From NCBI GenBank assembly GCA_000004985.1, contig GG738873.1: DNA of 64,000 nucleotides. One strand, given 5' to 3'. The notes beneath the pieces were generated by a model. The model ran no database searches. It was not told the origin of the DNA and was given only the letters and a program-made list of their open reading frames with translations. This DNA is from Naegleria gruberi. Its lineage: Eukaryota. A program made the translations under genes and the position numbers. How positions within the stretch are numbered: the stretch's first letter is position 1; each line of letters opens with the position of its first letter. Shown one piece after another: positions 1 to 64,000 of the stretch.

Positions 1-285
1 TTTTCAAACAAATGACAGGTGATTGTTTTTAAACAGAAATGTTTACTCTTCGTCTTTCTTGAATATTTAATTGTTAAATATTTAAATAGTATTTAACTGT
101 AATAATACTGTAAAGAAGGCTTTCAAAAAAATGAGAAAAATTTAGAAAAAAAGAAGGGAAACGTTTTCTCTCCAACACTCTTGCTCAAGTATTAAGGTGT
201 AACGGAATTTATTTTCTCTGTAGTAGTAATAATTAATACTAGTAATTGTATATTAAAAAAGTTGATGATTAAGGAGGAATAGAAA

Positions 286-38141: not shown

Positions 38142-40976
38142 ATGGCAAGAAACAATTTTTTTATTGCAATACTGGCTGTTTTTATTTTAGGATTAATTAC
38201 AGGTAGGTAGTAAAATCAACAAGAAGATGTAACACGGACTAGTTAATCTTTGTACCAATATTGTTAATGCTCAGGATGAAAATTCAGCAACAACAGAACA
38301 AGTGCAAAACCTTAAAGCTCAAAAACTTCTTCAAAATGATTTTTTAGAAGTGTTGAGCGTATTGCAAAAGCAGCAATCTGACCTCTCAGACGCAAACACC
38401 AAGAAGAAGCTGTTGGATACAAAGGAAGCTATTGAAATTTCTGGTCCATACCTGGCTGCTCTCAACATTACCTCGGATCAATTTACAACCATGCTAGCCA
38501 ATAAGCAAACTCAATTGCAAAGTGTAATGAGCTTGGAATTGGAGTTGAAGAATTTGATATCATTGACCCAAAACTCTGCTAATATTGTTGGTGATAACAT
38601 CAAAAATTTTGTAGCTGTAAGTATTAATTGTTTGTCTTTTATATTTAACATTAGCAGTTGTTCACAAAAAAAGCCTACACTGTGGATCAGTATCAAAATA
38701 CAACAAAAGAGGTACATAGATATGATCTTAATATTACCCAAGTTGATGCAATTGTTCCAAACTATCTAACTGCTTACCCAGTGAGAAGAATTAGAAATCG
38801 TATTTCAGTCGGTTTTCAACACGTGTTAGTACTAAACCAAAATGGGAAGTTGTACTCTACAGGTATTCCTTCTTATGGAAATCTGGGAAGAACCAACACT
38901 GATTCAAGAATGTTATATAACTTGCCTGTTCAAGGATTGGATGGTCTTGATATCCTTCAATTTGATGCCAATTATTACTCAAACCTTGTTTTAACCAATG
39001 ATGGAGTTTATTCATTTGGGTTGAATGACAAATCACAGATGGGAACTGGAGATAGAAATGACAGATATGTCGCTGGAAAGGTTTACGGATTTGGTGGACA
39101 AAATATTGTTCAAATAGCCATGGGACGCCAAGCATCCTATGCCATTGATTCCAACGGCAAGTTATGGGCCTGGGGTGACAATACCATGTACGGTCAATTG
39201 GGAGACAGAACCTTTTCTGAAAAGAATCGTCCTTTCCCAGTTTACAGCTATGGCGCTATTAACAGCACGGCTGTGGTTAGGGTTTGTGGGGGTGGTTACT
39301 TTGCTCTTGCCTTACTTGCAAATGGAAATATGGTTTCGTTTGGTGATAATTCATATGGACAGCTAGGTGTTAATAACCCATTAATTTCAAAATCGGGAGA
39401 ACCATTGTTGGTGGTTAAACCTTCAGAACTAGCCTCAAAGACAATTGTTGACATTCAATGTGGTTATGATTATGCAATGGCCCTTACATCATCAGGTGAT
39501 GTATATACTTGGGGAAACAACAATTACGGCCAATTGGGTGATGGAAGTTCTGGAGGTAAATCCCCAATTCCACAAAAGATCACAATTTCTGGCTGTACAG
39601 TATCCCAAATCCACACAAAATACCAAAGCTCATTTGCTTTGTGTACAAGCAACGAACTGTATTCATGGGGAATGAACTCTGTTGGCCAACTTGGAAGAAC
39701 TAGTAACCAAATACCAACAACTACCCCAACCAGAGTTGATCCTTCGTCGTTCTTGTCCAGCACTGATGACTATTTGGGCTTCCCCAAAATTATTGAGATA
39801 TCCTCCAATTTTAACAACATGTTCCTTACCACATCTGATTTGAGTATTTATGGAACCGGATCATGTATTGATGGTTCTAAACAGCAATTTGCCTTCTTCT
39901 ACACTACAAGATCCAGTGATTATGGGGCTTGCACTAGTTCCAATATTTTCTCCTTGAATTCAATGTCAAAGATGCCAACTTTCTCTTCTATTAGTTATCC
40001 AGTATCCCTTAGAAAGGCCCAATATTTTGAGATTGGAACAAGAGCCTACCTCCTTCAAACAGATACAGTAGTTCCAACCAGACCTAATAATGGCTTTAAT
40101 ATGTATTATAAGCAATTTGCTGATCCAGAAAACTCTTGGTCTATTATCGAACGAAATGAAGCCACCAACGCAGGTTTTCCTGTATCAATTTACAACAGCC
40201 ACTTCCTTAAAGCTGATGAATATGTCTACTTCTTTGGTGGTTTCATCAATGACGAAGTTTCAAATAAGATTTACAGGGCTCCAATTTATGATGTTGAATC
40301 TGGATGGGAACTCTGTAATTTTACTCTACCATATTCTGTTGCAAGTGGTATGACAACAGTTATTAATGGATACATTTATATTTTTGGTGGTATAACCAAG
40401 ATCTATTCCTACAATGGCGGTGAACTTCCAACTCTTTCTCCAACAGTTACAAACCAAATAATTAGAGCCCCAATTAATAATTTGACAAATTGGATGGTTG
40501 TTTCAGGAAAGGTATTGCCATCCGCTATACACAGTGCTTCCATTACAATTATTGACAAGTATGTCTATTTATTTGGAGGTTCCCCATCTTATTACTCTTC
40601 CAGCCAAGAAGTTTACAGAGCTTTGATTACTGATCCTTCATCTTGGGAAATGACTTTTGGTTTACTTCCATTCTTTGTAACAAATGGTGCTTTTATCTCA
40701 ACTGGTAATGAATTGTTAATGGTTGGAGGCACAGCTTCTGGCAGTTTAGTGAATGGAGGATTTATGGCGATTTCAAAGAAGTCACAATTTGACCCAGTCG
40801 GCTCATGGATGGCTAGTGATGTATTCTTACCTTCAAATGCTGCCCAATCTCTCATTACAGTGATTAGAAACGACACAGTATTGCTCTACGGAACTGAATT
40901 GCACCGTAGTACTTCTTACACTCCCCACTCACCAAAAATTGGAAGAGTTTTGAAGCTTGCACTCGATCTGTACTAA
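38142..40976 (+). CDS. Paralog A: secreted protein with coiled-coil + RCC1-like beta-propeller + Kelch-like beta-propeller; 3 exons, 918 aa
   Basis: Exon 1 is 38142..38202 and encodes MARNNFFIAILAVFILGLITG. Intron 1 is 38203..38242 (40 nt, GTAGGT..CTAG, phase 1). Exon 2 is 38243..38616. Intron 2 is 38617..38654 (38 nt, GTAAGT..TTAG). Exon 3 is 38655..40976. The frames of ORFs 38302..38769 and 38658..40976 join exactly. The predicted signal peptide cleaves near ..IVNA|QDEN. About seven RCC1-like blades carry G.N..GQLG motifs, for example YGNLGRT, GLNDKSQMG, GDNTMYGQLGD, GDNSYGQLG, GNNNYGQLGDG and GMNSVGQLG. The Kelch-like repeats are YVYFFGG, YIYIFGG and YVYLFGG. Confidence 0.8.
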
Positions 40977-41451: not shown

Positions 41452-44363
41452 TTAATTTTGGGAAATTACAATAGTTGATATATGAGAGTGTAATCCTTCC
41501 ACTGTTGTGATAATGGATGAAGTTGAATTTGCAGCTGCTGTAATTACTGATACAATGTAACCAACAAGCGGTAACTTTAAATCAATAACTATCCATTTTG
41601 AAGGATCATTTTTAAAACAAGCTAATACATTAGTTGAATTTCCTTCATAATCCTTTCCTCCCCAGATGAAATAATTATCGTTATCACTTGAAATTTTAGC
41701 TTCCACTCTGCTGTATGGAAGAACTTCATATAAATTCTTCCATTTCCAGTCTGCGAGTGATGCTACATGTATATCACCCACAGATTGAACTCTGTTCACT
41801 CTTCCTCCAAAGAAGTACATAGTTTTATCAATTATCTCAATAAATACATTGTAAACCGATCTTGGTAAAACTTGGTTCACAACTTCCCACAACAGCACAT
41901 TGCTAATTTTTGCTCTCATAATCTTTGCTGTTGGTACTCCTTTTGCAATCATTCCACCAAATATATAGACATATTCCTCAATCATTTTAAGTACACCATT
42001 AGCAACTGGATATGGTAATGTTTCATTATAGATTGTAACTTGGTTAAAAGATTGCTTTGAAATAATTCTATTTGAAAAGGTGCCATTCACAATACCCCCA
42101 AAATAAAAAGTCAATCCATCAAATGCAAGTTGGTGAGTGCTAAAGAATGACTTGGCAAAAAACTTTGGGTCAATTGAAAAATTGAAAGTGGGGCTAGAAA
42201 AATAAAAGGAACTAGCTAAAATGACAGAGCTAGAGTTGGAGCTTGACAACGACTTAGTGTAAATTGGTATTTTTGTGAAACTAACTAAATCAAAACCAGT
42301 ATTAGGAATTGGATGATCCATAACTATCACTCTCTTCTCTTCATCTTCATATATTGGAAGAGTTCTTTCTTCTACTGGAAAATAATTAAAAGATCCCATC
42401 ATCATTACACCTGCCATGTAATTTTGCTCATTAATGAACCCACTTGGAAAAGGTGTCACTTTAAAATAACCACCAACCATAATGCCAATTTGCCCATTAT
42501 AGGAATAAACTACTAGAGAAGAATCAGTAGATATTTGAACATCCAATAAATCTTCATATGCTGTTTCGTGAATTTGTACAAATCTTGGTTGCCTAATATC
42601 TCCACAACAAGGAACTTCGTACGATACTGACTTGATGCAAGCTGCTGGTTTTTCACAAGTGCTAATTGTATAACCAACAAATACAGGGTGAGCAGAAACA
42701 GAACAAGTGCCTGAAGACAACAATTGGCTTATTTCTGCTGCTCTCTCTGGAAGAATTCCACTCTCATATAGCCTATTTTCACCAGTAAATACGATATCCA
42801 CATTATGGGCAGGAGCCCACTCTTCACAAGCATGTTCAATGCAAATGGCTGTCAGTACTCCAGTTGCACACTGACACTTTTTCTTAGTGTTAACTCCCCA
42901 AGAAACCACTCTATTGTCAGTGGTAATGGCGTTCACAAGACCACCTCTGTGTCCAATTTTTTCAAATTTAACATCTCCAATGAACTGCCTACTAACTGGA
43001 ACGGGGGAGGGTGATGATGTTTCATCATCAGTTCCAACACAAGGATCATACCTTCCCCAAGCATAAATATTTCCATTTGACAACAAAGCTACAGTTGTTT
43101 CAGTTCCACATTGAATATCTTTTACAAAAACTCCTTCAATCCAGTCTGGAAAGCTGCTCCTAGAGATTGGTGTTGGTGATACACTGGATGCAGATCCCTA
43201 AAAGAAAACAGTAATTAATAATATGTCAAATATTGTACTCACCCAAGTATAAATGTTACCATCATAACCAATTCCAAAGGCATCTTTATCTTGTAAGCAC
43301 ACTTTTTCCATTCTAATATTTGAATTCATTCTTGTTGGCTTTTCAACATTGATATTGTCATTGTTTCCAATTATTGGGCCACCTATTCCCCATATAAAAA
43401 CGTACCCAGAATTATCTATAGCTACTGAATTAATTGCTGCATTCATGTATGCAAAAGTGTTATCATGATAAAGTATTGTAAGTGGTAAGGAAATAAATTT
43501 GTTTGTTCCTGAAGGAGGAGGTATGCCCAATCTTCCATCTGAGTTTTCTCCCTTTCAAAAATTTAGATAGATATAAAATATTGACAACCTACCCAACCAA
43601 TGATTCGTTTGTTGGTCAACACCATTGCATGAACTTTTCCACATACTAGTTGTTTGATGAATTCTCCATCTACAAGTCCTAAATTAACAGCAGCTGGTTC
43701 TATAGTTGGTGGTGAGCCCGGTCTTCCAAGAGGAACAGTCAGACTATATTCATATCCAAATGACATAAGCTGCCCACTTGAAAGATCAATGTACATTCCA
43801 TACTGATCTCCAAGGCATATGAATGTTCTTTCAGAAATAAATTTTCCACGTACTTCTCTTGAAATGCTGACTTTGTTCTTTCGTATGGATGTAGAGTTCA
43901 TTTTCTCCCTTGCAAAATAAGGGGATTTAAAGGCTTCTTGCAATGTTGTTAGGTTTTTTACAAATCGTTGTTCTATACTGTTCCACTTTTCTTGAGCAAT
44001 TTTGTTCATGCACTTTGTTTCCTTCAGCGAATGGAAAAAGGATTGCCTCCTTTGCAAAGTTTGCTTAAATGCATACATGTTTCTATTATTTGTTTCTCCC
44101 AAACTAATTATTTTCATTTCATGATCAACTTGTTTCAATTGAGCTTCTACTTCATTAATATATTCAAACATTGTTCCATTTAATTGATTAACTTTCTCTC
44201 TGTGGGCTTTTGCATTCATTAGGGCTTCAAGATAGATCTCCGAAGACATTTTGGTGTTTGTTGTTAGTGTTGCATTCATTACATTTGTTGAGTTGAGAGC
44301 CACAACTTGCAAACAACATCCCACAGTCAGGAAAAACAAAAGAACAACACTCCAACCACCCAT
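41452..44363 (-). CDS. Paralog F: secreted coiled-coil + degenerate RCC1-like + Kelch-like protein; 3 exons, 941 aa
   Basis: Exons on the minus strand are 44363..43593, 43551..43243 and 43197..41452. The introns are 43592..43552 (41 nt, GTAGGT..GAAAG) and 43242..43198 (45 nt, GTGAGT..TTTTAG), both phase 0. Frames join exactly across ORFs 43563..44363, 43198..43530 and 41452..43086. The signal peptide MGGWSVVLLFFLTVGCCLQVVALNST lies in the first exon with no intron after it. The coiled-coil region is ..NQLNGTMFEYINEVEAQLKQV... RCC1-like motifs are degenerate: GENSDGRLG, GYVFIWGIGG, DGNIYTWG, NGNIYAWG and DNRVVSWG. The Kelch-like repeats are LTFYFGG, YVYIFGG, TMYFFGG and YFIWGG. Confidence 0.75.
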
Positions 44364-50398: not shown

Positions 50399-51903
50399 AT
50401 GGGACAAAGAGGTTCAAAGGGAACGAATAATAACGGAAAGAGAGGATCAACACGATCCACCACGACCACAACAACAAATACAACAAATACTGTTGCTAGT
50501 ATTCAAAACGATCCACAGGACTTTGAAAAAGTATGTACAAGATTATTTGTTATATTAATAATTCTTTTACAATTAAATTATATAATATTAACAACATGAT
50601 GATGCTGCGGAAATTAATTACAGGGCATTGAATTTATAATAGATAAATTAAAAAACAATGAAATATATAGAGCAAGACTCCAAGATATTAATATTATGAG
50701 GCAATTTGCTGAAGTTCTTGGTACAGAAGATAAACTCCAAACAACCTATTTAACTACCAAATGGTTAGATACTGTTGATCTTGCCAGGAAGATGTTACAA
50801 CAATCAAAGACTTTAGTGGAGGATGAGGAATTATCTAGAAGTGGACATTCAGGTATGAAATCAGTTGTACCAGCCAGTACAGCTGCTTCGGATGTGAATC
50901 AAATCAACAAGACACCATCAGAAAATGTTGGAGGTGACTTTGATGATGATGATGATATTATCAATGAGGAAGATATTCGTTTGGGAGAAAAGGATCCAGG
51001 ATTGAACAAGATTTTAGAACAAAATACTGTTAAAGTTAAGATTGTCATTTCTGAAATTGCCAAGACTAAAGGAAAGAAGGCATTCAGAAGAATGTTGTCT
51101 CCTGTTTTGAGCAAATTGGATATGTTACCAGAGTTGGGTATGTTCCACTCTGCTCTTCAAATTGGGTATGTAACTATTCTCTAATATTTCCCCTCACTTT
51201 ATATTGTTTAATATTTACTTGCATTACTAATTAATCAATCAAATATTTTAGACCTTGGTTAATTGAATGGAACAATTCTGCTATTTGTGTTCCAAGAAAA
51301 TGTGTTAGCTCTGCTGCCATGCTATCAGCAGATATTGAACAACTCCAAACCAATGAGGATGTTAGAAATGTTGTAGAGAAATTGAGCAAAGTTATTGTAA
51401 AGTGGAATACTAGTATGAGTTATAAGGAAAGAGATACAGAACCAGGAAAGAGTGGAAATTGTCAAGATTTTGTGGATGATGTTCTGGTTTCAATTGGACT
51501 TTCAAGAGATAGCCTATCACAAGGACCTCTTGGAGAATTCCTTAAAAAACTCAAAACAAAGGGACAGAGTGATTTGGTTTTCAAAATGAATGAACAATTC
51601 AGAAAAGCATTTAATTTTGCTGAAAACAAAAAGAAATTTACTACCCACAGAGATTTGGACGAATTTGTTAAAGGTTTACTGACTATTGATCCAGATTTCG
51701 AAAAGAACTACCGATATGAATGGCTATTCCTCAAATCAATGGATCGTGCATTCTGGCTGAAACATATAAAATTTGAGGAAATGGAAGAATACAAGCCTGC
51801 TTCAAGGGAGGCTGTAGATGAGGATGATGAGGTTATATTAATCACAGACTGCCCATTCAAAGATCCAAGAGATACCTATTCTTTCATTTATGACGACGAA
51901 TAA
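50399..51903 (+). CDS. N-myristoylation-motif protein with LRAT/NlpC-P60-like (H..NC.xFV) catalytic-core motifs; 3 exons, 441 aa
   Basis: Exon 1 is 50399..50530 and begins MGQRGSK.., ending at ..DFEK|GTATGT. Intron 1 is 50531..50623 (93 nt, ..TTACAG). Exon 2 is 50624..51165. Intron 2 is 51166..51251 (86 nt, GTATGT..TTTTAG, phase 2). Exon 3 is 51252..51903. Frames join ORFs 50399.., 50696.. and 51319... The motif ..MFHSALQIG|PWLIEWNNSAICV.. resembles the LRAT/H-rev107 His box, and ..GKSGNCQDFVDDVL.. resembles the NCEHFV Cys box. Confidence 0.55.
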
Positions 51904-52652
51904 ACCAATATTATCCTATACAGTTACATGAAACCTAAAGAACTTAAAAACCTATTTCTAAATATTAATCCTTGTAATTGGTTTACAATAGATTTCAGTG
52001 TGGACATTTTCAAGGTGGATTTTATACAAGGTTTTGGAAGTCTAATCTGTCGATTGTGACCTGCATGACGAAGATAGAGAATCAGAAGAGCATTGACCAT
52101 GAATGTCTGTTACAGAGCTTGACATCGAAGAGCGGACTGCACCAATGATCTTTGAACAAGAAATGAGAGAACATTTGGAATCGACTTGGTGCAAAGAACT
52201 AAAATGAGAATTGCTAGTTTTCAGACAGTTTTTCAAGATTGAATGGTGATGTGAATTGACCAAAAGTACCACTAATCATCTTGATGTTGCTGTGCATGTT
52301 TCGTTCGGAGGAAATTGTTGGTGAACAGTGTTTAATTGGTTTTTTCTAACAAGCAGTAAAAACGAGCTGCCCTTAATGAAAATCTTTGTCTGCTCAACCA
52401 TTATTGAATTATGAGGGTTCAGAGTATATAGAAATCAACAAAAAGGTGTATTGAGGGTTTGGTGAAGACTAAATTAAGTGCGTTTGATCATGTTTGGAGG
52501 GTGACTCCTTCTGTTGGAGGAAGCAGTAACAGTTCAGATACAATAAAGCAAGTAAAAGTTTCAAGCTAAGCGTTTGTTCTTGTCATGGTTGGAGTGTAAT
52601 GATTCAAATGTTTGTTTTTGAAACAGCCGATTCAAAATAATATAAAAAAGAA

Positions 52653-55600
52653 CTAAAAAACCATGTCACAATATACTTTAATTGGTATTGTTGTTCCATT
52701 ATTTAGAATACTATAGAAACCACCACCAATCAAACCTTGATAAACACGAGAGGTGTTAGTTGGATTTTTGTAGGAAGAGCAAGAATCAGCAACAGTTCCA
52801 TCAGCATAGTGTCTCCCATTACTGTAATCCACTATTCCTATTAATTGACATCTGTCACCAAATCTACCATGACTACATTGACATTCATCATTACCAACGC
52901 AAATACCAGCTGAAGAGCAGACACTTGGATTAGTAGCCTCGTAATATTGTGGACCAGTATACCCTGTAACATTACTGAAACCAAAATCTGGGTTAGAACA
53001 TTGATAGCACAACAATGGATACTTAGTGCACCAATCAAAATGGGTCAACTCTATATTTGTATCAGGAATAGCAGTCCATGATCCTATAATATCACTCTTC
53101 TTACCAAAGGCAAAGTAAGGTCCAGTTGAACTAGTGGATGAGTTTGTACCACCAAAAATATATAACTTATCTTCTGTTGAGGAAAATGGACCGGTATTAG
53201 TAATGAAATAAGGAAGGAGACCGAAGGTCATCTCCCAAACAGTTGGAGATTGTAATTTTGCTCTAAAGATATTAATACCACTTCCTCGTACTGTTGAGCT
53301 GCCACCAAACAAGTAGACATAATTATCAACCACTTCGATAAAAGCAGAATGCAGAGGAAGGGGAATAACATCTTGTACAATCTCCCATTTTGTTATGCTT
53401 GTTGTTGAAGCTCGCATTATACAATTGGTTACATTGTGTTTCATTGTTGGAGCAATATCTGCAGTTGCATTGAACTCATAGATGGAAATGATACCACCAA
53501 AAATGTAAACATAATCTCCTACTGCCATAAGCATACCAGATGCTATTGGGATTGGAAGTTTTTCGTTAATTAATTCCCATGATTGAAACAAATCATAGAC
53601 AGGTGCTCTGTAAATTCTATTTGAAATATCATCATCCACAACACCTCCAAACAAATAGACATATTCACCATGTTTAAGGACGTGTGTATTATAAATAGAG
53701 TGAGGAAAACCAGTGTTGGTAGTTTCATTATACTCAATCATATTCCATACCATGTCATTTGCTGTAACGTTTGTGGTGTACATATTGAACCCGTTATTTC
53801 TTCTTGTTGGAAGAGTGTTCTCTGTTTGAAGTAAATATGCAATATCACCCATTTCGAAATAAACTGGTTTTCTCTGATACCAGTATAATTGCATGTTGGT
53901 TTGGTGTCGTACTTGAGTGAAAAGTCCGTTAATAGAGAAAGCAAACTTCTTTGTTTGAACGGTTTCAAAGCAATCTTGTCCAAGGAAAAACTGGGTATTA
54001 AAACAGCCACCTGTGGCATGAATGGATCCATCAGCAAGAAAAAGGAAGGAATTATAAACATTGGAAGTAATATCTACAATTGGGTGAGCTGAGTATTTTA
54101 CAAGTTTGGGCGATAGAATTTTTAATCCATAAGAAAGTCCAGCACCTGTTTGCCCAATATCATTCAATCCCCAAGAATAAAAATACCCTGGTTTAGATGC
54201 ACAAACAGCAAAACTCACATGACCTTTTGTGTGGATCTTGGTTACGGTGCAGTTAATACCAGAAATCAAAGTTGGTATTGGTATGTTTGTTGTGTTACCA
54301 GTTCCAACTTGTCCATACATATTACCACCAAAAGCAAAAACTTTACCACTGGCTGTAAGGACAAGGTTATGAAACATACCACATTGAATATCTTTGATTG
54401 TCTCATTTTGGAATGGTTTCATCTTTACAACAACAGGCTCACCACTTGAAACGTAATCACCAGTACCCAATTGACCGTATGTGTTGTCTCCAATTGCTAC
54501 CAGATTACCTGTTGATGTTAAAGCAAGTACACTACCATTTCCAGCACAAACTCTAACAACTGTTTGATTTGCTAAAGCTCCGTATCTATAAACAGAGAAT
54601 GGTCTATTCTTTTCATCCCAAGTTCTGTCACCAATTTGACCTTGATCATTAGCTCCCCATGCCCACAATTTTCCATTTTCATCTATCGCATACGAAGCAT
54701 AATTACCCATAGCAATTTGAACTATTTTAGTGTCAAAGTTAAAACCATGAACTTTTGTTGCTTTCAACACAGATTTAGTTCCACCAGTTGCTAATTGTGA
54801 ACGATCATTTAAACCAAAAACATAGAGACCATTCGTAGTCAACACCATGCTGCTATTTCTCTGAGCTTCAATTTGAAGAATTTCTAATTCGTCAAGAACT
54901 TCAACAGGGTTATTGTAGAGGAGTCTAGAATCCTGACTTGTTCTTCCCAAATTTCCATTATTGTAGACACCAGTCGAGTATAATTTACCATTAGGCATTA
55001 GTACAAGTACGTGATTTGCACCTGCAACAATTCTGTTTCTCACTCTGACAATAGAAGAATGATATTCATAGGAAGGAAAAATACCTGGTCTAGAGTTGAA
55101 ATACATTTGGTGGTTCATTGAAAAGTTCAAAGTGTTTTGTCTGAATAATAATTCCTCTCCATAGATAGCTTCGGTGAAGTTCTTTACAAAACTAAATTGT
55201 CGATGCTCAAAATAAACTTACATTAATCATATTAAAACTATTCTCTCCCAATATTCTTTGTGAGTTATCAGCCAAGGTAATGACATTTAGTAATTCCACC
55301 TCCATGCTCAATGCTCTTTTCCAGTCCTTTTTCTTTGATGTGACCATTTGATCAAACATTGTTTGATTAACTCCCAAGTCATCCAATATCATTGAAGCTC
55401 CATCAAGTGCTTCTTGCATATTCACTAGCTTTTGCATTATCTTTGAGGAGTAAAAATCTTCCTTTTGCTTTTCGAGTCCAACCAGAACTCTATTGTAACT
55501 ATTTTGTTTTTCTTTCCATCCTTTTACAAGTTCAACAGCATGTTGTTGTTGATCATTTGAGGCATCAAATGTATGTACACTCAATGTGAAGCAAATTATT

Positions 55601-55701
55601 ACTATGAAAAATTTATAGTAAGCGGAAATATACAACCTACAAAAAGCTACACACACACATTGCAATTTAGACCGCAAACCAGCGTTGAGGGTCTTCATCA
55701 T
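52653..55701 (-). CDS. Paralog B: secreted coiled-coil + RCC1-like + Kelch-like protein with an extra C-terminal EGF-like module and a truncated fibrinogen-like start; 3 exons, 989 aa
   Basis: Exons on the minus strand are 55701..55641 (MMKTLNAGLRSKLQCVCVAF), 55601..55222 and 55181..52653. Intron 1 is 55640..55602 (39 nt, GTAGGT..CATAG, phase 1). Intron 2 is 55221..55182 (40 nt, GTAAGT..TGTAAAG, phase 0); an alternative acceptor 27 nt downstream is also in frame. RCC1-like motifs are YNNGNLGRT, GLNDRSQLATG, GANDQGQIGD, GDNTYGQLGTG, GGNMYGQVGTG and GLNDIGQTG. Kelch-like repeats are YVYLFGG, YVYIFGG, YVYLFGG and LYIFGG. The C-terminal segment reads CSSAGICVGNDECQCSHGRFGDRCQ, then ..RVYQGLIGGGFYSILNNGTTIPIKVYCDMVF and stop. 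Confidence 0.75.
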
Positions 55702-56077
55702 TCGTTTTTTTTCTGAGTTGTGCACCGCAAATCACTGTAATTTCTGTGTTAAGGCTGTATTCACAGTAAGACTTTCAAAAACCTTAACTAGAAGTTATTT
55801 GGAGAATATTAGAAGAAGATTGTGCATAATGTATCTCCCAAATGTGCTCAACATTTTTTTTGGTTTCAAGCCAATCATAAGGGACGATTGAGCAGCAATA
55901 AACTTTTCATTTCTGCACGAAAATGAGATGATAATTGCCTACAGATTTATTAATCAAGATCTGTTTCTAAGTTGAATAGTCCACAATAAAATTCAAAACA
56001 TTTCAAAGAATAAAGTCCCTATCATTTTCATTATTCTCATTCAATACTCTATATTATCATTAAACTACTAGTACAAT

Positions 56078-58846
56078 TTATTTATTTTCAAATGGTTGAG
56101 TTAATAATGGTATGGTACACAATGTGTGAGTCTTGTTGCTCATTAACCTGGTGAAGATTCTCTTGATATCAGTGCCGTAGAGATAAAGATTATTACCAGA
56201 GAAGGTTGGAGTGAAAGAAGAAACAGAAGGGATAACATCTCCCGAAACAGTCCATGAACCAACTGGGTCACTTGTTGGAGTGTAAACAACTCTGTAATTG
56301 AAATCATTCAGAGATCTTGAATGTCCTTTGCTTGGATAACCACCAAATATGAAAATGTAATCTCCTGTTACCACCATTGGCCCATCAGAGTAGGTAAATG
56401 GCAATACAGAGAAGGTATTTTCCCACAGATAGGGGAAAATATATCTAGCTCTCAAAATATCAGAGTAGGCTTCTTGAGATGGTGATCTACCCCCAAAAAT
56501 ATAGATATAATCACCGATCATGGCTATGTTACCACCATACACAGGTTGTGGGAGTTTTTTAGAGACTATTTCAAAGTTGTAAGGTGCATTGATAGGGGCA
56601 CGAATTATCATGTCAGTAACATTATTAATTGAAATGTCAAAGTTCAAGATGCCACCATAAATGTAGATGTAATCGTCTACAACCAATGACATACCAGAAG
56701 CAACTGCATATGGTAAGGTATTTTTCATCAACTCCCACCCATTCTCTATATCACTGACAGGAGCACGATAAATCTTATTGCTGAGGGTTCCATTCACCAC
56801 ACCACCATAAAAATAAATATATTCTTGAGCTCTGGCTATATGCGTGTTATAAATGGTACCAGGGAAGGTTCTTTTTGTCTTGTTTTGGTAATTCACAAGA
56901 TCCCAAGTCATAGGGTCACTCAAGTTTCTATAATACAACTGGAAGCCATTATCCACAAGTGGATAATACTTATCACCAACAAACTGATAGGCCTTATCAT
57001 CAGTTTCAAAATATGGGTAATGTCTTCTTTCAAGAGTAAAGCCAGTGGTGTTGTCAAAGGTAAAAACTTTTCTAAAATTGGATGTTACAGGTTCAAAAAC
57101 GTCAAACAATTGTCTTTCGGTTTGGGAGGAATATCCAGCACCTACAAACGCTCCATCGGTTGTCAAGCCAACAGCCGACCTGTACATCATTGTTATTTCA
57201 GTAATTTTGTGGTTGTATAATTCATCATTGGAGAGAGGAATAACTTCTGTTGCCACATTCATAAGAGCAGAAAGACCACCTGTGTGACCTAATTGCCCAT
57301 TAGAATTATCACCCCAAGAGAACCACTTTCCATCGTTACAAAGTACAAAGGAATTTCTAAACTTGGAATAGAGGGCAACAATAGATCTGCCAGCACCAAT
57401 ACCAGCCATTTCAATTGGTGTAGGGACAGTGAGGTATGGTGAATTGATACCTGTTCCACACTGACCTTTGTCATTTTTTCCCCAAGCAAAAACTTTTCCT
57501 GATTCTGTCAATACAGTTGTAAAATCATCACCACACTTCAAATCAACAACTATCTCTCCTGCAAAGCTTTCTGGTAAATTTACAGCAACAGCTTCCATTT
57601 TATATTCAGCGGAGGAGGCGCTTCCAATACCTAGTTGACCGTATGTGTTGTCGCCAAATGAATACAGACTATTATTTGAGGTTAAGACAGCAGTGTGTGA
57701 CAAACCACCACAAACCTTAACAATGTACTGATTGGCTAGAGCACCATCCATGTATACATCAACCGGTCTCACCTTTGTCACAGTTGTTTTATCACCAAGT
57801 TGGCCTCTATGATTTCTTCCCCAGGCATATAACTTGCCGTTTTCCTTAATGGCATAGAAAGTAAAAGCACCAGCAGCAATTTGCTCAACATCTTGAGGAC
57901 CTTGCAAGTCCCAAGAGAATAATTTGAATGGTACTTTTTTGTGAACGGCAACGGTTCCATCACCAACTTCGCCATAGTCATTTCTTCCCCAAGTGTAAAC
58001 AGCATCACCAGCCAAGAGAATGTTACTATAGTACGAAGAATCGAATTGAAGAATTGTAAGATTGACATTTGTAGAATAGTTTGGCAACTCAACTGGTGTA
58101 CTAAGTGTTGGAACATATCCTGTGCCCATAGTAGTTCCTAATCTACCCAAACATCCATCACATTCAACACCCCAGGAATAAAGTTTTCCATTGCCATGAA
58201 GATAAAGTCCATGGTCTCTTCCAGCTGATAGCCTATTTCTTTCACGCACAACCTTCTTAAAGGTTGCATAGTTTGGCAGATACCCATATGTAAGATTAAA
58301 ATGCAACGGAACAGGAATTGTACTAATGTTAGTATTGGTCCACTTAGAAGGATCATTCAAATAGTTCAAGGAATCTATTACCAGATCTTTCAAGGAACTA
58401 TATGTTGTATTAAAACCTTGATTGGTGAGAGCAATGAGACTGTCAAGTTCTTTTTCAACAGAAACAACATTCTCATATTGGGTAACCTTATTTTTAAGAA
58501 TTGCTTCGTATTGGTCTTGAGGGATACCAAAATCAGATATAAATTCTTTCGAGTACTTTACAGCTTCACTAATAACAGTGATTTTTTCTTTAATATTTGC
58601 TTTGACCATGTCTGCTTTTTGTTGTAAATAATCTTGATTAACAGCATAATAACTATCTCTTCTTTCTCTAAGACTAGCAATATTATAGTAAGCTTCATCT
58701 AACGGGAGTTGCTCTGATAATACTTGATTGATTACTGTTATATTAAGCATTGTAAATAATCATTTAATATTAATAAATAGAAACATCAACCTACCCGAAG
58801 CAACAAGCAATAGTAACACAACCACAATTGTGGCATTCAGCTTCAT
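56078..58846 (-). CDS. Paralog C: secreted coiled-coil + RCC1-like + Kelch-like protein; 2 exons, 902 aa
   Basis: Exon 1 is 58846..58795 and encodes MKLNATIVVVLLLLVASG. The intron is 58794..58735 (60 nt, GTAGGT..AACAG, phase 1). Exon 2 is 58734..56078 and is in frame with ORF 56078..58750. RCC1-like motifs are GVECDGCLGRLG, GRNDYGEVGDG, GRNHRGQLGD, GDNTYGQLGIG, GKNDKGQCGTG and GDNSNGQLG. Kelch-like repeats are YIYFYGG, YIYIYGG, YIYIFGG and YIFIFGG. Confidence 0.8.
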
Positions 58847-59018: not shown

Positions 59019-61799
59019 ATGAAAATCAAGCCATCCCCAAACACGCACATCAACAAACGGGTGGTTTTTTGCGTCCTCCTCGCTTTGCTAGGACTTGGTA
59101 AGTAGTGTGGAGGAATAATATGTTGACACGTTTAAAGTATTTGTAGTGGTCAAGGCTCAATCAGAACAATCTTTCAGTGAATATGTACTTTCCTTAATGT
59201 TCATGATTCAAAAAAGACAAAGTTTGATGGGAATTGAAACAGATTATTTAAGTGAAGCTGACAAAATTATCTACAAGGAGAAAATAATTTATAATACAAA
59301 ATATGCAATGGAAAGGTCTCTAGCCTCTATTAACAAGCTTGGTGTTAAAGAACAAACATATACCATACTTCTCTCAGCCAAACAAAACGAAGCAGCAGCC
59401 GCTTGGGACTCTCTTGTTGAAGTTAACAGTTATATCAATGTTACTAAGCATGCTGTTTCAGTTGCCTACTCAACCATTGATTCAATCAATGAGGTATGTT
59501 TTTTTACAATTTTTGTTGCTGAACCAGTTAGAAATTATCGAATGTACTTCTAAGCTACCACCATTGGCAAAAAACTGACCTCGATTTATTGCCAGCAAAC
59601 ATGACTCTCAATACTACAGTTGGTTATCTCCCAAATCATGTAATGTATTTCCCAGTTATGAGAATTAGAAATAGAATTTCTGCTGGATTAAATCATGGTT
59701 TGTTCCTTGGCCCTGGTGGTAATTTGTATTCTTGGGGTGTTGATATGGGTGGTTCTTTGGGAAGATCTGTTAACACACCAATGCCAAGTTTGGATTTGCC
59801 TGTAGAATTGAAGAACGTTACCATTCTTCAGTTCACTAACTCTTACTATGGAAATCTGTTGCTAGCTGATGATGCCGTCTATTCATGGGGAAAGAATGAC
59901 TATGGAGTTGATGCTGATGGTACAACTGTGAATCATTACCAACCAAGGAAGGTCTTTTCATGGGATTTACAAGGTCCTAAAGGAATCGCTCAGATTGCTT
60001 CTGGCCCATATAACTTTTATGCTATTGACGAAAATGGTAAACTCTATTCATGGGGAAAGAATGATTTTGGCCAACTTGGCGATAGAACTCCAATTGACAA
60101 ATGGAGACCTGTGGACGTTTTTATGAAGGGTGCTTTGCTTAATCAAACAGTTACCAGAGTTTGTGGTGGTTTGACTCATACTCTTGTCCTTGCCAACAAT
60201 GGAATGCTTTACTCTTTTGGTGATAACTCTAAAGGACAACTTGGTATCGGAGTTAGTTCCTCAGTTATTGCAAAGAAATGGGAACCTGTCCTCATCAATT
60301 TCCCATTCAATGACACAATTGCAGATATTCAATGTGGTGATAACCACAACCTGGTGCTCTTGACTGGAGGTGCCATGTATGCTTGGGGTCTTAACGACTA
60401 TGGGCAACTTGGAGATAATACCACAACAACAAGAACAAAACCAACCAAAGTCAACACACTCTCAGCTATTGGTACAAGAAAAGTTGTCAAGATTGAATCA
60501 AGACTCAACGAGAATTTTGCCTTCTTGGAAAATGGAGCCATGGTTTCATGGGGTCAAAATGATTATTCTCAATTAGGTCATTCCAAAATAGCAATTATAG
60601 GCAATATTGCCACCACCTTTATAAATGTTCCGGTAGAGTTTAGCTTACCCAATGGTTATATGCCTTCTGAAATAGCAATCATGAATGGATCAACTGTAAT
60701 TCTTGGTGCAAATGGCACCCTTTATGGTGCTGGATTTTCTTCAGAAAGTACCAGAAAACTGTTGAACATCACCACTTCCCAAACTAAGTTTACCCAGTGT
60801 TACACCTTCCCACCTATATACCCAGTTATGGAAAGAAGACATTATCCATATATCCAACTCAACGAAAAGAGCTATGCATTTATTGGATCCAAGTACTTTT
60901 CTTACCCTGATAATGGGTTTGATGGATACGTGAGGAATAACACCTCTCCAGAATTGTGGTCAATGATTGATTATCAAAATACAACATCACAGATGTTCCC
61001 TGGTTCCATTTACAATACTCATATTTTGAGAACTAACCAACATGTTTACTTCTATGGTGGTTTTGTTAATGGATCAATTTCAAACCTTATTTACAGAGCT
61101 CCAGTGGATAATATTGAAAATGGATGGGAAATTGTTAAGCCAACGCTCCCATTCCCAGTTTCAAACGGTATGTCCATTTTATTGGATGACTTTTTCTACA
61201 TATTTGGTGGCTTGACTTGGTTTAATAGCACAGACAAAGGATTCGTATCAATTGGTGTTTCATCAAGTATTTTGAGATGTCATGTTTCCAGTCCAACCCA
61301 ATGGGAAATAATGAGTGGTGGTGGGTTGCCAAGAGGTGTCTATAGTGGCAATATTGCAAGAATTGGAGATTTCGTCTATATTTTGGGTGGGCGAGTTAAC
61401 ACGGGTGATGCGTTTGCTGACATCTTCAGAGCTCCTTATTTGAATATTAGTCAATGGGAAAATACTTACTCAGTGCTTCCATTCCCTTTATCTGATAGCC
61501 CAATGATAATTACCAATAGTAGTATCTACCTCATGGGAGGATATTTGTCTGAGTACTCTCCAAATATTATTGGTACATACTATCCTCATATTATTACAGC
61601 TCCTCTAAGTGATCCAGTTGGTTCATGGTCTGTTACTGGAGACAAGCTCCCAACTAATCCAGCTTTTCAATCTGTTACTTCGCCAGTAGTTGTTGGATCG
61701 AATGTATATTTATACGGTAATGATGCCTCAAAGATAACAGAGACAAACATCAGAAGTACCACTGTCAGCTCATTCATTAAGATTCCTCTATTGGTTTAA
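59019..61799 (+). CDS. Paralog D: secreted coiled-coil + RCC1-like + Kelch-like protein; 3 exons, 897 aa
   Basis: Exon 1 is about 59019..59097 and encodes MKIKPSPNTHINKRVVFCVLLALLGL. Intron 1 is 59098..59146 (49 nt, GTAAGT..TTTGTAG, phase 1). Exon 2 is 59147..59493. Intron 2 is 59494..59531 (38 nt, GTATGT..CAGTTAG, phase 0). Exon 3 is 59532..61799. Frames join ORFs 59146..59553 and 59589..61799. RCC1-like motifs are GVDMGGSLGRS, GKNDYGVDADG, GKNDFGQLGD, GDNSKGQLGIG, GLNDYGQLGD and GQNDYSQLG. Kelch-like repeats are HVYFYGG, FFYIFGG, FVYILGG and IYLMGG. Confidence 0.75.
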
Positions 61800-61990: not shown

Positions 61991-64000
61991 ATGATCTGGA
62001 GCAATACTCATGTAGAGGTTAGTCCAAAGAGCATTGGGCTTGCCGTGGTATTGTTATTTGTATCAATATCTTTTATTTGTAAGTTTCTCCAAGTAATAAT
62101 TGAAGCATATAGTCCATATAGGTGTTACTTCAAGTGCTCAAACAACCCAATACAATAGCACATTAACTTCAGAATTGTTTTACAAACTGTCATTTTACAG
62201 AGAAAGACGAGATAGTTTTTACCAGATTTACACAGACTACGTTCGTCAAAATCAAGAAATAGAAGAATCCAGAATTAAATTGAAAATTAATATTACAAAA
62301 GAGGCTGTAGAAGCTTCTTTTTATGAAATTACAAAATTAAGAATTCCAGTTGAACAATACTATCAAATGCTGAATAATAAGAATATACAATACGCAAACC
62401 TAGAAGAGGTTCAGAAGGAGCTTGATGACTTGATCACATTGACTGATCTTGGTTTCCTACACACCCAATCCACCCTAGATGATGTAGAAAAAGTAAGTCC
62501 TTCAGTTATTGGAAATGCTTATCGGTAATAGTCTGCTTCTAACATTTTGTACAATGAAGAAAAATGGCAATTGGCCAAAACAAGGAAGATAGTTTCCTCA
62601 ATGAACTTTACTACGACTGTTGGATTTCTTCCTAGTCATGCTAGATCTCACAAAATACCAAGAATTAGAAATAGAGTGTCTGCAGGAAAAAATCATGGTA
62701 TTCTTCTTCATTATAATGGACTACTCTATTCTTGGGGCGCTGACAATGGTGGTGCTTTAGGTAGACCAAATAGTGCAGGTGTCTCATCTTTTACTCTCTC
62801 TACCCCTGTTGAATTACCAAAGAATATTTCCATTCTTCAATTTGTTAGCTCAAACTATGCCAATTTGGTTCTTGCTGGAGATGCAGTTTATTCTTGGGGC
62901 AGAAATGAATACGGAGTTGTTGGTGATGGTACTTTTGGTGGAAATAAGCCACCATACAAGTTATTCTCTTGGGATTTGCAAGGTCCAAAAAGAATTGAGC
63001 AAATTGGAGCTGGAGGCTACACTTTTTATGTAATTGATGAAAATGGAAAAGCATATGCTTGGGGCAGAAACAATAGAGGCCAACTTGGAGACAAAACAAC
63101 CATTGACAAGCCAAGACCAGTTGACGTCTACATGAAAGGCATTTTACTCAATCAAACAGTCATTAGGGTTTGTGGTGGAGAAAGTCACACTTTGTTGTTG
63201 ACTAGTAATAATGAATTAGCGGCTATGGGTGACAACACTTATGGGCAATTAGGTGTGGGTACTTCTGGTGGATATAAAATGGAACCAACAAGAGTCAACA
63301 TCAAATTTAATGGTACTATTATGGACATACAGTGTGGTGAAAATTATAACCTTGTCTTAACTTCCAAAGGGTTGGTATACGGTTGGGGAAGGAACGATGT
63401 TGGTCAACTTGGAAGTGGAGACAAGCTAGACAAGTTGGAACCTACTCTTATTTCCTACCTTAAAAACAGCACAGTAGTCAAGATTTATGCCAGATTTTCG
63501 ACCTCATTTGCTCTTACCAATGAAAGTTTCTTATATGCTTGGGGTAATAACAATCAATACCAATTGGGTGCTAGTTCAGCCACCCTTTTTACAGTACCTC
63601 AAAATATAACACTCCCAGAATATGTGACTGTTGTTGACTTGGCTGTCATGCAAGGAACAACTGTATTTTTAGGAAATAATGGTACTTATTACGGTAGTGG
63701 TGGATCAACTAATGGAGAACTGCTCCGTATTTCATCACAACAACCAGCCTTCGACTGGATTTATAATGGATTGAGTTTTTATGGGTTTGCAATGGAAAGA
63801 AGAAGATATCCATATTTTGAAGTGGATGATATTGCCTACCAGTTTGTAGGGGACAATTTTGCAATCTTTCCAGATAATGGTTTTTACCTTTATAAGAGAA
63901 ATATTGCAGATCCAACAATGGGTTCGATTGTAGAATACAGAAACAATACTGGCAAATTCTTCCAAGGAACAATTTACAATTCTCATATGCTTAGACTAGG
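61991..64000 (+). CDS. Paralog E (3' end truncated by the window edge): secreted coiled-coil + RCC1-like + Kelch-like protein; at least 3 exons, more than 645 aa in the window
   Basis: Exon 1 is 61991..62078 and encodes MIWSNTHVEVSPKSIGLAVVLLFVSISFI. Intron 1 is 62079..62112 (34 nt, GTAAGT..CATATAG, phase 1). Exon 2 is 62113..62492, in the ORF 62100..62528 frame, and ends ..DDVEK|GTAAGT. Intron 2 is 62493..62531 (39 nt, ..GTAATAG). Exon 3 runs from 62532 and stays open to the window end. This frame is absent from the ORF track, presumably because it has no stop. RCC1-like motifs are GADNGGALGRP, GRNEYGVVGDG, GRNNRGQLGD, GDNTYGQLGVG, GRNDVGQLGSG and GNNNQYQLG. Confidence 0.7.

What the first reader, a model, noticed from the sequence alone, without database searches (positions are those of the whole stretch)
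52653..52760. Paralog B ends in an EGF-like module plus a truncated fibrinogen-like domain start (..KVYCDM, then stop)
Unlike the other paralogs, B continues after the Kelch propeller with CSSAGICVGNDECQCSHGRFGDRCQ. A 45-aa segment follows: GTVADSCSSYKNPTNTSRVYQGLIGGGFYSILNNGTTIPIKVYCDMVF. It matches the N-terminal beginning of fibrinogen C-terminal (FReD) domains (..SG.Y.I.P.....F.VYCDM.T.GGGWTV) but stops after VYCDMVF. No continuation exon with GGGW was found downstream at 52040-52650. This is either domain shuffling frozen as a remnant, or a missing or mis-assembled terminal exon.
Basis: partly seen in the sequence, partly recalled or inferred. Interest (0 to 1): 0.5.

Follow-up and report, generated by a model that had tools for sequence, protein, structure and literature searches.

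The report
Truncated duplicate gene, fibrinogen-like stub
This Naegleria gruberi gene is a shortened extra copy of a neighbouring full-length gene; homology ends just after the first ~58 residues of a fibrinogen-like domain, so only a stub remains. This is ordinary gene-family evolution, not a new kind of domain.

Summary
Gene B (minus strand, exon 1 55701-55222, 40-nt intron, exon 2 55181-52653) ends in an EGF-like module (52919-52848) and then a 58-residue start of a fibrinogen-like domain (52835-52662). After ..VYCDM come two unrelated codons and a stop.

The stub scores 81 bits against a profile built from 28 non-Naegleria homologues. No GGGW or other continuation exists in any frame of the 64 kb.

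The window is the N. gruberi NEG-M 461,873-bp scaffold; several ORFs match NEG-M proteins exactly. The same scaffold also encodes a full-length 1018-aa copy, NAEGRDRAFT_68523. It lies outside the window and, from accession order, on the other strand. It continues VYCDM-TTNGGGW plus about 190 residues.

A related-strain contig of that full copy is collinear with window 56117-52662. It loses all similarity exactly after the ATG of CDM, and it has no intron there.

B is therefore most likely a 3'-truncated paralogue from a partial duplication or a later rearrangement, not a gene with a missing exon. B's two indels relative to that copy are both in frame, so it probably still codes. It lacks the region that in canonical fibrinogen-related domains (FReDs) holds the ligand site. 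A chimeric assembly join cannot be excluded without reads.

This is a new member of a known kind and of low general interest.

The parts
55222..55701 (-). Gene B exon 1 (160 codons): N-terminal hydrophobic segment (probable signal peptide or anchor) and a region matching the N-terminal part of N. fowleri FDP41_001825
   Evidence: ORF. Translation and phase. 92.7% aa identity over the 164-aa ORF that L001 calls upstream of its full-length copy, and 44-47% identity to the N. fowleri locus L002.
55182..55221 (-). 40-nt GT-AG intron, phase 0 (GTAAGT...AAAG)
   Evidence: Read from the sequence. The spliced product ...NMIN|NFTEAIYGEELLFRQ aligns with N. fowleri ...LVN|NYTQETYSDELFFRQ.
52653..55181 (-). 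Gene B exon 2 (842 codons plus TAG). The predicted whole protein is 1002 aa.
54069..55037 (-). RCC1-like beta-propeller domain
   Evidence: Pfam PF25390 scores 211 bits against a 150-bit cut-off, at residues 32-354 of the 825-aa ORF. Six RCC1 repeats are also found.
53061..53756 (-). Kelch-repeat region
   Evidence: Pfam Kelch_6 scores 45.3 bits and Kelch_1 25.1 bits, both above their cut-offs; residues about 459-690.
52848..52919 (-). EGF-like (tenascin/teneurin-type) module core CSSAGICVGNDECQCSHGRFGDRC. The probable first Cys lies upstream at 53000-53009 (CYQC).
   Evidence: Pfam EGF and EGF_2 score 17.0 bits each, E about 0.007, below their cut-offs. The pattern C-x-C-x5-G-x2-C is present. 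Coordinates.
52662..52835 (-). Stub of a fibrinogen-related-type domain (58 aa, IVDYSNGRHYADGT..SC..VYCDM). It corresponds to what I recall as the disulfide-closed N-terminal 'A' subdomain and keeps both Cys residues (..ADSC.. and ..VYCDM).
   Evidence: NF040941 hits at E 1.9e-4, profile 14-36 of 46. A family profile scores it 81.4 bits. It aligns with full domains of P0001-P0004. In the AF2 model of the full relative the equivalent residues have pLDDT above 90.
52653..52661 (-). Breakpoint and unrelated sequence: GTT TTT TAG (Val-Phe-stop). All similarity to the full-length copy ends between 52662 and 52661.
   Evidence: The blastn alignment L001 1-3521 = window 56117-52662 ends here. Base-level alignment.
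52662..56117 (-). Segment shared with the full-length gene's locus, at least 3.46 kb. L001 ends at this point, so the true extent towards higher coordinates is unknown.
   Evidence: 95.1% identity overall. One search gives the identity profile: 98-99.5% in the middle, 94-96% in exon 1, and 88-94% in the last 400 bp.
51904..52652 (.). Anonymous, unique spacer between B's stop and the stop of the convergent gene 50696-51903(+). It holds no coding continuation, no Rfam or tRNA hit and no repeats.

Best explanation
Gene B is a 3'-truncated paralogue of the N. gruberi gene NAEGRDRAFT_68523. The ancestral architecture is: signal or anchor segment, RCC1 propeller, Kelch propeller, EGF-like module, and a C-terminal fibrinogen-related-type domain of about 240 aa of the 'YCDxxxxGGGW' kind.

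A partial duplication (inverted, if the accession-order inference holds), or a duplication followed by a rearrangement, placed a copy in the window. The 3' boundary of that copy falls immediately after the CDM codon. By my recollection of fibrinogen-related domain (FReD) structures, that is the boundary between the small N-terminal A subdomain and the B and P subdomains. Unrelated DNA then supplies Val-Phe-stop.

- **Shown:** the abrupt end of homology, the absence of any continuation in the window, the existence of the full copy on the same scaffold, and the FReD fold of the full domain.
- **Inferred:** B is still a working gene, presumably secreted or surface-exposed, that keeps the propellers and the EGF module. 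It cannot perform FReD-type ligand binding, because in canonical FReDs the binding site lies in the P subdomain. The central part of B has been kept similar to the full copy by gene conversion, while the edge next to the breakpoint retains older divergence.
For: 1. **The window is NEG-M.** ORFs 4487-6256, 6776-8401 and 9295-10830 are exact matches to EFC43501, EFC43421 and EFC43422. The A paralogue is identical to EFC43425 over 773 residues.
2. **The full copy is on the same scaffold.** P0278 (NAEGRDRAFT_68523, EFC43436, D2VI14; 1018 aa) is listed on a contig of the same 461,873-bp length as those genes. It continues VYCDMTTNGGGW... to ...MTVYLR.
3. **It lies elsewhere and probably inverted.** UniProt accessions run positionally along the window and EFC numbers run per strand. 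This places the full copy on the + strand about 20 genes after paralogue A, whereas B is on the - strand about 5 genes after A. The next accession, D2VI15 (NAEGRDRAFT_68524), is the questin-oxidase-like gene that also follows the full copy in L001.
4. **Homology ends abruptly.** L001 matches window 56117-52662 and nothing afterwards. Its downstream genes are absent from the window and vice versa.
5. **There is no intron at that point** in L001 or N. fowleri.
6. **B is a distinct sequence.** It has 41 unique residues against the NEG-M and related-strain full copies, 27 of them in the last ~130 aa, where the two full copies differ at only one position.
7. **Divergence is uneven.** dS is 0.043 over codons 1-690 and 0.19 over 691-815; dN/dS is about 1 in the last 45 codons.
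8. **The reading frame is preserved.** The two indels in B's coding region are 24 and 18 nt, whereas the upstream non-coding indels are 17, 4 and 2 nt.
9. **The full domain has a FReD fold.** The AF2 model has pTM 0.73, and all 50 listed PDB matches are FReD-fold proteins (fibrinogen, angiopoietin, tenascin, ANGPTL, intelectin), with E down to 7e-5.
10. **There is precedent for a lone A module.** N. fowleri and N. lovaniensis paralogues carry the same module without GGGW, contiguous in the genome. These modules are as conserved between species as the rest of the protein: 81% vs 82%, and 86% vs 86.5%.
Against: - No sequencing reads or independent assembly of the junction were available.
- B itself has no protein record in the collection that holds the NEG-M proteome, so nobody has modelled or validated it.
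- An exact-match search for the junction in JGI metagenomes found nothing.
- The DNA of the full copy's NEG-M locus could not be fetched. Its position and orientation are inferred from accession order only.
- The stub is barely degraded (81 vs 88 bits). This fits a recent event, retention under constraint, or an artefactual join equally well.
- The dN/dS estimate for the last 45 codons rests on only 15 substitutions.
- Expression is untested.
Confidence: 0.72

Rival explanations
1. Assembly artefact. B is really a full-length paralogue, and the reference assembly joined its contig chimerically to unrelated sequence right after the CDM codon.
For: The scaffold is a draft containing a 1622-N gap. 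The stub looks intact. The stop follows only two codons after the junction, which is unremarkable in AT-rich DNA. No independent sequence of the junction was found.
Against: The junction lies in gap-free sequence that is contiguous from about 19.2 kb to 64 kb. No repeat or shared sequence at the junction could have misled an assembler. Divergence from the full copy rises steadily towards the breakpoint, which a random chimeric join does not predict.
Confidence: 0.13
2. B is the second haplotype (allele) of NAEGRDRAFT_68523 carrying a deletion, and it was wrongly placed as a separate locus in the scaffold.
For: The first 700 aa are about 97% identical to the full copy. B is no more distant from the related-strain copy than NEG-M's own full copy is.
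Against: B sits in contiguous, gap-free sequence. Its 3' side is unique (the 50696-51903 gene) and unrelated to the questin-oxidase flank of the full copy. It also appears to lie on the opposite strand from the full copy. The tail's dS of 0.19 is far above that of the rest of the gene.
Confidence: 0.06
3. The domain is intact in the mature protein. A terminal exon is missing from the window, or is reached by splicing from the GT that follows ATG at 52661.
For: A GT dinucleotide follows the CDM codon, and short (40-nt) introns exist in this gene.
Against: The donor GTTTTT is unlike the gene's real GTAAGT donor. Homologues have no intron here. No GGGW or tail-like coding sequence exists in six frames of 64 kb. 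A convergent gene ends 750 bp downstream. Plausible acceptors I read by eye in the downstream sequence give only short unrelated peptides.
Confidence: 0.03
4. The remnant arose by domain shuffling: B independently acquired only the first part of a FReD.
For: Other family members carry the A-type module without the rest of the domain.
Against: Similarity to the full-length gene is continuous across the propellers, the EGF module and the stub, and ends at a single point. This is the signature of truncating a pre-existing architecture, not of inserting a piece.
Confidence: 0.03

Closest known systems
N. gruberi NEG-M NAEGRDRAFT_68523 (XP_002676180.1, D2VI14), and its related-strain orthologue P0001 on contig L001
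   Same: Same architecture up to VYCDM: RCC1, Kelch, EGF-like module and start of the FReD-like domain. About 92-93% aa identity over 829 residues. The upstream exon 1 and intergenic DNA are also shared.
   Different: The full copy continues with TTNGGGW plus about 190 aa ending ..MTVYLR, and it is followed by a questin-oxidase-like gene. B stops two codons after CDM, has 24-nt and 18-nt in-frame deletions, has 27 unique substitutions in the last ~130 aa, and has different downstream neighbours.
N. fowleri FDP41_001825 (P0002, 1172 aa)
   Same: Closest annotated homologue in another species, 57% identity and the same domain order. Its FReD part passes the Pfam PF00147 cut-off (31.3 vs 22 bits) and the NF040941 cut-off (48.6 vs 30 bits).
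   Different: It has a complete C-terminal domain that is contiguous in the genome.
Bacterial 'fibrinogen-like YCDxxxxGGGW domain-containing proteins' (NCBIfam NF040941, for example in Bdellovibrio bacteriovorus)
   Same: They share the motif set R-x-W/Y-x-DGT-x-A-x-SC...Y.G..GDG.Y.I....VYCDM. In full copies they also share GGGW and a C-terminal hydrophobic-x-hydrophobic-R/K ending. 3328 proteins match the tail profile at E<=1e-3.
   Different: B matches only profile positions 14-36 of 46 and falls below the cut-off. The host protein is eukaryotic with RCC1 and Kelch propellers.
Canonical fibrinogen-related domains (fibrinogen beta/gamma C-terminal domains, angiopoietins, tenascin FBG, ANGPTL, intelectins)
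   Same: The modelled full-length relative matches only these folds in the PDB. The Cys...YCDM pair corresponds to the first FReD disulfide (my recollection of the fibrinogen gamma-chain structure).
   Different: Sequence similarity is limited to Pfam profile positions 10-46 of 221, even for intact Naegleria copies. TM-scores are modest (0.27-0.48), and the part of the model beyond about residue 170 has low confidence. B lacks what I take to be the B and P subdomains entirely.
N. fowleri FDP41_001824 with N. lovaniensis C9374_009414 (P0006/P0005), and P0003/P0004
   Same: They carry the same roughly 58-aa module not followed by GGGW (..VFCNM/FCDM, then unrelated sequence). So a lone A-type module occurs naturally in this family and is conserved between species.
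   Different: There the module is internal and followed by a linker and further EGF or FReD modules. In B it is the extreme C-terminus, created by a breakpoint.

Membership tests
Fibrinogen-related domain (Pfam PF00147 Fibrinogen_C) | Profile match above the gathering score | tested here: not met
   No PF00147 hit on B even at E<=10. The intact relatives P0001, P0002 and P0003 pass with 25.3, 31.3 and 23.1 bits against a 22-bit cut-off, but only over profile positions 10-46 (to 72 in P0003) of 221.
Fibrinogen-related domain (Pfam PF00147 Fibrinogen_C) | N-terminal subdomain with the conserved Cys...[YF]C[DE]M disulfide pair | tested here: met
   ..ADSC.. (52779-52790) and ..VYCDM (52662-52676) are present and align with all homologues. 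The stretch ending at CDM scores 81.4 bits against the family profile. The disulfide itself is inferred.
Fibrinogen-related domain (Pfam PF00147 Fibrinogen_C) | GGGW(T) motif and the central beta-sheet (B) subdomain | tested here: not met
   The stop falls two codons after CDM. There is no GGGW or GGW[TL] in six frames of the window, and tblastn with full tails is negative beyond 52662.
Fibrinogen-related domain (Pfam PF00147 Fibrinogen_C) | P subdomain carrying the ligand and Ca2+ binding site | tested here: not met
   About 190 residues present in P0001, P0278 and P0002 are absent from B.
Fibrinogen-related domain (Pfam PF00147 Fibrinogen_C) | FReD three-dimensional fold (tested on the parent domain, not on B) | tested here: met
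   The AF2 model of the P0001 tail from a 30-sequence alignment has pTM 0.73 and pLDDT above 90 for residues about 10-75. All 50 listed Foldseek PDB hits are FReD-fold proteins (fibrinogen, angiopoietin, tenascin, ANGPTL, intelectin), probability 1.00, E down to 7e-5. The C-terminal third of the model has low confidence.
NCBIfam NF040941 fibrinogen-like YCDxxxxGGGW domain | Profile match above the 30-bit cut-off, including the GGGW part | tested here: not met
   B scores 21.4 bits, E 1.9e-4, over profile positions 14-36 of 46. P0001, P0002 and P0003 score 40.8, 48.6 and 30.4 bits.
EGF-like domain | Six-Cys pattern and profile match | tested here: inconclusive
   Pfam EGF and EGF_2 each score 17.0 bits, below their cut-offs of 21.5 and 22.1. 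The pattern C-x-C-x5-G-x2-C is present. There are five Cys in the core and a candidate first Cys 20-30 residues upstream. UniRef names homologues P0002-P0006 'EGF-like domain-containing protein'.
RCC1-like domain plus Kelch propeller paralogue family of Naegleria | RLD and Kelch profile matches, and close homologues in Naegleria | tested here: met
   PF25390 scores 211 bits against a 150-bit cut-off; RCC1 130 bits; Kelch_6 45 bits. Hits to N. gruberi, N. fowleri and N. lovaniensis have E=0 to 1e-130.
Truncated (partial) gene duplicate | A full-length copy exists in the same genome | tested here: met
   P0278 is listed on a contig of the same 461,873-bp length as the genes that match the window exactly. 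It differs from B at 53 of 829 aligned residues. Its position is inferred from accession order, not from DNA.
Truncated (partial) gene duplicate | Abrupt end of homology with unrelated flank beyond it | tested here: met
Truncated (partial) gene duplicate | The junction is real in the organism, and the copy is transcribed | not testable with these tools
   No reads, ESTs or second assembly of this locus could be reached.

The most novel reading that the evidence does not exclude
The roughly 58-residue, disulfide-closed N-terminal piece of this FReD-like domain may be an autonomous module that Naegleria keeps on its own. It occurs without the GGGW, B and P parts in conserved paralogues of N. fowleri and N. 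lovaniensis. In B it is still nearly intact although the rest of the domain is gone. If so, the stub would be a functional mini-domain (for example a spacer or an interaction surface at the tip of a secreted RCC1-Kelch-EGF protein) rather than debris. A further implication is that the whole family would show a bacterial-type FReD fused to propellers in a free-living amoeba.
Probability: 0.2. Interest if true: 0.4.

Novelty: new member of a known kind. Interest (0 to 1): 0.2.

Why it matters
- **Annotation.** The N. gruberi NEG-M protein set in the collection searched has no record for this 1002-aa gene. It should be modelled as a truncated paralogue of NAEGRDRAFT_68523, not as a gene with a missing exon or as a 'fibrinogen domain protein'.
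- **Gene-family evolution.** It is a clean example of a breakpoint falling at what appears to be a structural subdomain boundary. Divergence is high next to the breakpoint and lower, though patchy, across the rest of the copy, which looks like gene conversion between the copies.
- **Wider context.** The Naegleria RCC1-Kelch-EGF proteins carry a FReD-like domain of the type NCBI catalogues in bacteria (YCDxxxxGGGW). This may interest people studying lectin-like recognition modules outside animals, but that family is already catalogued.

Tried and rejected
- **Downstream exon.** Six-frame motif scans, tblastn with four homologue tails and visual translation of 51850-52720 found nothing.
- **Hidden gene, RNA or mobile element in the spacer 51904-52661.** Pfam on the longest open stretches, tblastx and blastn against the related loci and the window, Rfam, tRNA and repeat scans were all negative.
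- **Searching with the tail alone.** The word-indexed protein search returned nothing. The whole protein was needed.
- **First working model: strain difference.** I first read B as an allele or orthologue of P0001 carrying a strain-specific deletion. I dropped this once exact look-ups showed that the window is NEG-M itself and that NEG-M also holds the full copy elsewhere on the scaffold.
- **EFC accession spacing as gene order.** This was misleading until it became clear that EFC numbers run separately for each strand. UniProt accessions are positional.
- **Independent sequence of the junction.** An exact-pattern scan of JGI metagenomes gave 0 hits. Exact-protein look-ups of two start variants of B gave none. 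The NEG-M full-copy locus could not be fetched.
- **Synteny through the downstream gene.** Only 41-43% identical relatives in unrelated contigs were found, which is uninformative. It did show that 50696-51184 and 51319-51903 are exons of one conserved gene.
- **First AF2 run.** With four sequences it gave pLDDT 36 and was discarded.
- **Literature.** Two full-text searches found nothing on this family in Naegleria.
Full report
**1. The observation**

On the minus strand an ORF runs from 55130 to 52653.

Two details need correcting. The '45-aa' string is 48 aa. The given coordinates cover only the last 35 codons. The conserved module begins at 52835 and the EGF-like core is at 52848-52919.

The gene also has an upstream exon (55701-55222) joined through a 40-nt GT-AG intron (55221-55182). 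The spliced junction ..NMIN|NFTEAIYGEELLFRQ matches N. fowleri ..LVN|NYTQETYSDELFFRQ. The predicted protein is 1002 aa with a hydrophobic N-terminal segment.

The other RCC1-Kelch paralogues in the window end soon after the Kelch region and have no such tail.

**2. Is the resemblance more than chance?**

- Pfam finds the RCC1-like domain (211 bits) and Kelch repeats on B. It finds only sub-threshold EGF matches (17 bits) and no Fibrinogen_C.
- NCBIfam NF040941 ('fibrinogen-like YCDxxxxGGGW domain') matches at E 1.9e-4 and 21.4 bits, below its 30-bit cut-off. The match runs from profile position 14 to 36 of 46, so it is cut at YCDM.
- A whole-library HMMER search with a profile of four intact Naegleria tails found 3328 proteins at E<=1e-3.
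- From those I built a profile of 28 non-Naegleria domains. It scores B's 66 residues ending at CDM at 81.4 bits, against 88.4 bits for the same stretch of the full-length relative.

The homology is therefore certain, and the stub is nearly undamaged.

**3. What the full domain is**

Intact relatives pass PF00147 only over profile positions 10-46 (to 72 in one) of 221. They pass NF040941 fully. Named bacterial members are 'fibrinogen-like YCDxxxxGGGW domain-containing protein', for example from Bdellovibrio.

Most of the 109 C-terminal domains of this family that I extracted end in hydrophobic-x-hydrophobic-R/K.

An AlphaFold model of the full tail from a 30-sequence alignment has pTM 0.73 and pLDDT above 90 for the first ~75 residues. 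All 50 listed PDB matches are fibrinogen-related-fold proteins: fibrinogen beta chains, angiopoietins, tenascin, ANGPTL and intelectins. Probability is 1.00 and E goes down to 7e-5.

The parent domain is therefore a divergent FReD.

B keeps only the part before GGGW. From what I recall of FReD structures, this is the small disulfide-closed A subdomain, and B lacks the B and P subdomains where ligands bind.

**4. There is no missing exon**

- No GGGW, GGW[TL] or second [YF]C[DEN]M exists in six frames of the 64 kb.
- tblastn with four full tails finds nothing past 52662.
- The 750 bp down to the stop of the convergent gene (51903) has no coding continuation, repeat, tRNA or Rfam match.
- In the related-strain contig L001 and in N. 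fowleri the domain is contiguous coding DNA with no intron at this point.

**5. The breakpoint**

L001 positions 1-3521 align with window 56117-52662 at 95% identity. The alignment stops exactly after the ATG of CDM.

L001's continuation consists of the rest of the domain, a questin-oxidase-like gene and two further genes. All of these are absent from the window. Conversely, the window's downstream genes are absent from L001.

**6. Whose genome, and which gene?**

Exact-sequence look-ups show that the window is the N. gruberi NEG-M 461,873-bp scaffold:

| Window ORF | NEG-M record |
|---|---|
| 4487-6256 (-) | EFC43501 / D2VHY8 |
| 6776-8401 (+) | EFC43421 / D2VHY9 |
| 9295-10830 (+) | EFC43422 / D2VHZ0 |
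| Paralogue A, 38658-40976 (+) | EFC43425 / D2VHZ4, identical over 773 residues |

The full-length 1018-aa protein P0278 (NAEGRDRAFT_68523, EFC43436, D2VI14) is listed on a contig of the same length. The questin-oxidase-like NAEGRDRAFT_68524 (D2VI15) is listed there too.

UniProt accessions follow position along the scaffold. EFC numbers run separately per strand: 434xx for the + strand and 435xx for the - strand. On this basis the full copy is on the + strand about 20 genes after A, outside the window. B is on the - strand about 5 genes after A.

P0278 differs from B at 53 of 829 aligned residues. B is therefore a second, truncated and apparently inverted copy, not an allele of the annotated gene.

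B has no protein record in the collection that contains the NEG-M proteome.

**7. History and state of the copy**

A three-way comparison of B, the NEG-M full copy and the related-strain full copy shows two patterns.

- Over the first 700 residues the three are about equally distant, with clustered patches of differences.
- In the last ~130 residues the two full copies differ at only one position, while B has 27 unique changes.

Against L001, dS is 0.043 for codons 1-690 and 0.19 for codons 691-815. dN/dS rises to about 1 in the last 45 codons, though on only 15 substitutions.

Nucleotide identity is 98-99.5% in the middle of the shared segment, 94-96% in exon 1 and 88-94% in the last 400 bp.

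I read this as an old duplication whose interior is kept similar by gene conversion, with the edge next to the breakpoint escaping conversion. This is inference.

At conserved positions B has four derived changes (A->D, GDG->GGG, hydrophobic->S, Q->L) against one in the full copy. This fits some relaxation of constraint on the stub.

The two coding indels are in frame (24 and 18 nt) while the upstream non-coding ones are 17, 4 and 2 nt. The 3-kb ORF and its intron signals are intact. B is therefore probably still a coding gene.

**8. Precedent for a lone module**

N. fowleri and N. lovaniensis paralogues P0003-P0006 contain the same module followed by unrelated sequence instead of GGGW. In N. 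fowleri this is contiguous genomic sequence.

These lone modules are as conserved between the two species as the rest of their proteins: 81% vs 82%, and 86% vs 86.5%. A stub of this kind is therefore tolerated and possibly useful.

**9. Rivals**

- **Chimeric assembly join.** This cannot be excluded without reads. However, the junction lies in gap-free unique sequence with no repeat that could mislead an assembler. The divergence gradient towards the junction is also not what a random join predicts.
- **Misplaced haplotype.** The unique 3' flank and the inferred strand difference argue against it.
- **Missing exon.** Section 4 argues against it.
- **Acquisition of a partial domain.** The continuous homology in section 5 argues against it.

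**10. Verdict**

B is a 3'-truncated paralogue of NAEGRDRAFT_68523 that ends in an EGF-like module and a FReD-type stub. It is a new member of a known kind and of low general interest.

Its practical value is for annotating the NEG-M genome. It may also serve as an example of a breakpoint at a subdomain boundary combined with gene conversion between copies.

Noticed in passing
window 52653-55725 (-): Gene B (1002 aa predicted) appears to have no protein record in the collection that otherwise contains the N. gruberi NEG-M proteome, although neighbouring ORFs match NEG-M proteins exactly. It is probably unannotated in the reference.
   Followed up: partly
window 17519-38071 (-), N run at about 17.5-19.2 kb: A single ORF of about 6850 codons is full of tenascin-type EGF repeats alternating with modules of about 200 aa. 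It runs into a 1622-N assembly gap, so it is a giant secreted or surface protein whose 3' part is unresolved.
   Followed up: no
window 38658-40976 (+), 41452-44363 (-), 56078-58750 (-), 59589-61799 (+), 62100-64000 (+): A cluster of at least five further RCC1-Kelch (or Kelch-containing) paralogues surrounds B, on both strands. Several have a separate upstream exon encoding a region similar to B's exon 1. The N. fowleri locus L002 has a comparable cluster (FDP41_001824-001826).
   Followed up: partly
window 52662-56117 vs L001 and P0278: Differences among B, the NEG-M full copy and the related-strain full copy fall in clusters (NEG-M-unique at residues 524-602, related-strain-unique at 320-334, B-unique at 703-831). 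This suggests mosaic gene conversion or recombination between copies and strains.
   Followed up: partly
window 50696-51184 and 51319-51903 (+): These two ORFs are exons of one gene with no Pfam match. It is conserved at 40-43% identity in metagenome and WGS contigs from unrelated sources (L003-L006, GC 38-43%).
   Followed up: partly
P0003/P0004 (N. fowleri, N. lovaniensis), P0005/P0006: Family members show varied C-terminal architectures: EGF plus lone A-type module plus linker plus EGF plus full FReD-like domain, or EGF plus lone module plus EGF. The second domain of P0003/P0004 resembles homologues P0147 and P0153 (taxonomic source unknown) closely (WTLVYKYPKRV..TPNKF.. vs WMMAYKWPKGL..TPNKT..), which hints at gene transfer between bacteria and Naegleria.
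   Followed up: no
homologues P0122-P0277: Most of the 109 extracted C-terminal domains of the YCDxxxxGGGW family end in hydrophobic-x-hydrophobic-R/K at the very C-terminus. This recalls the final ..M-K-I-R-P strand of animal FReDs. Some proteins carry up to 15 partial matches to the module.
   Followed up: no
window 55182-55221 (-): The intron is very short (40 nt, GTAAGT...AAAG). List-of-ORF views split the gene in two, and prokaryote-style gene calls on L001 did the same (164-aa and 1018-aa products).
   Followed up: yes
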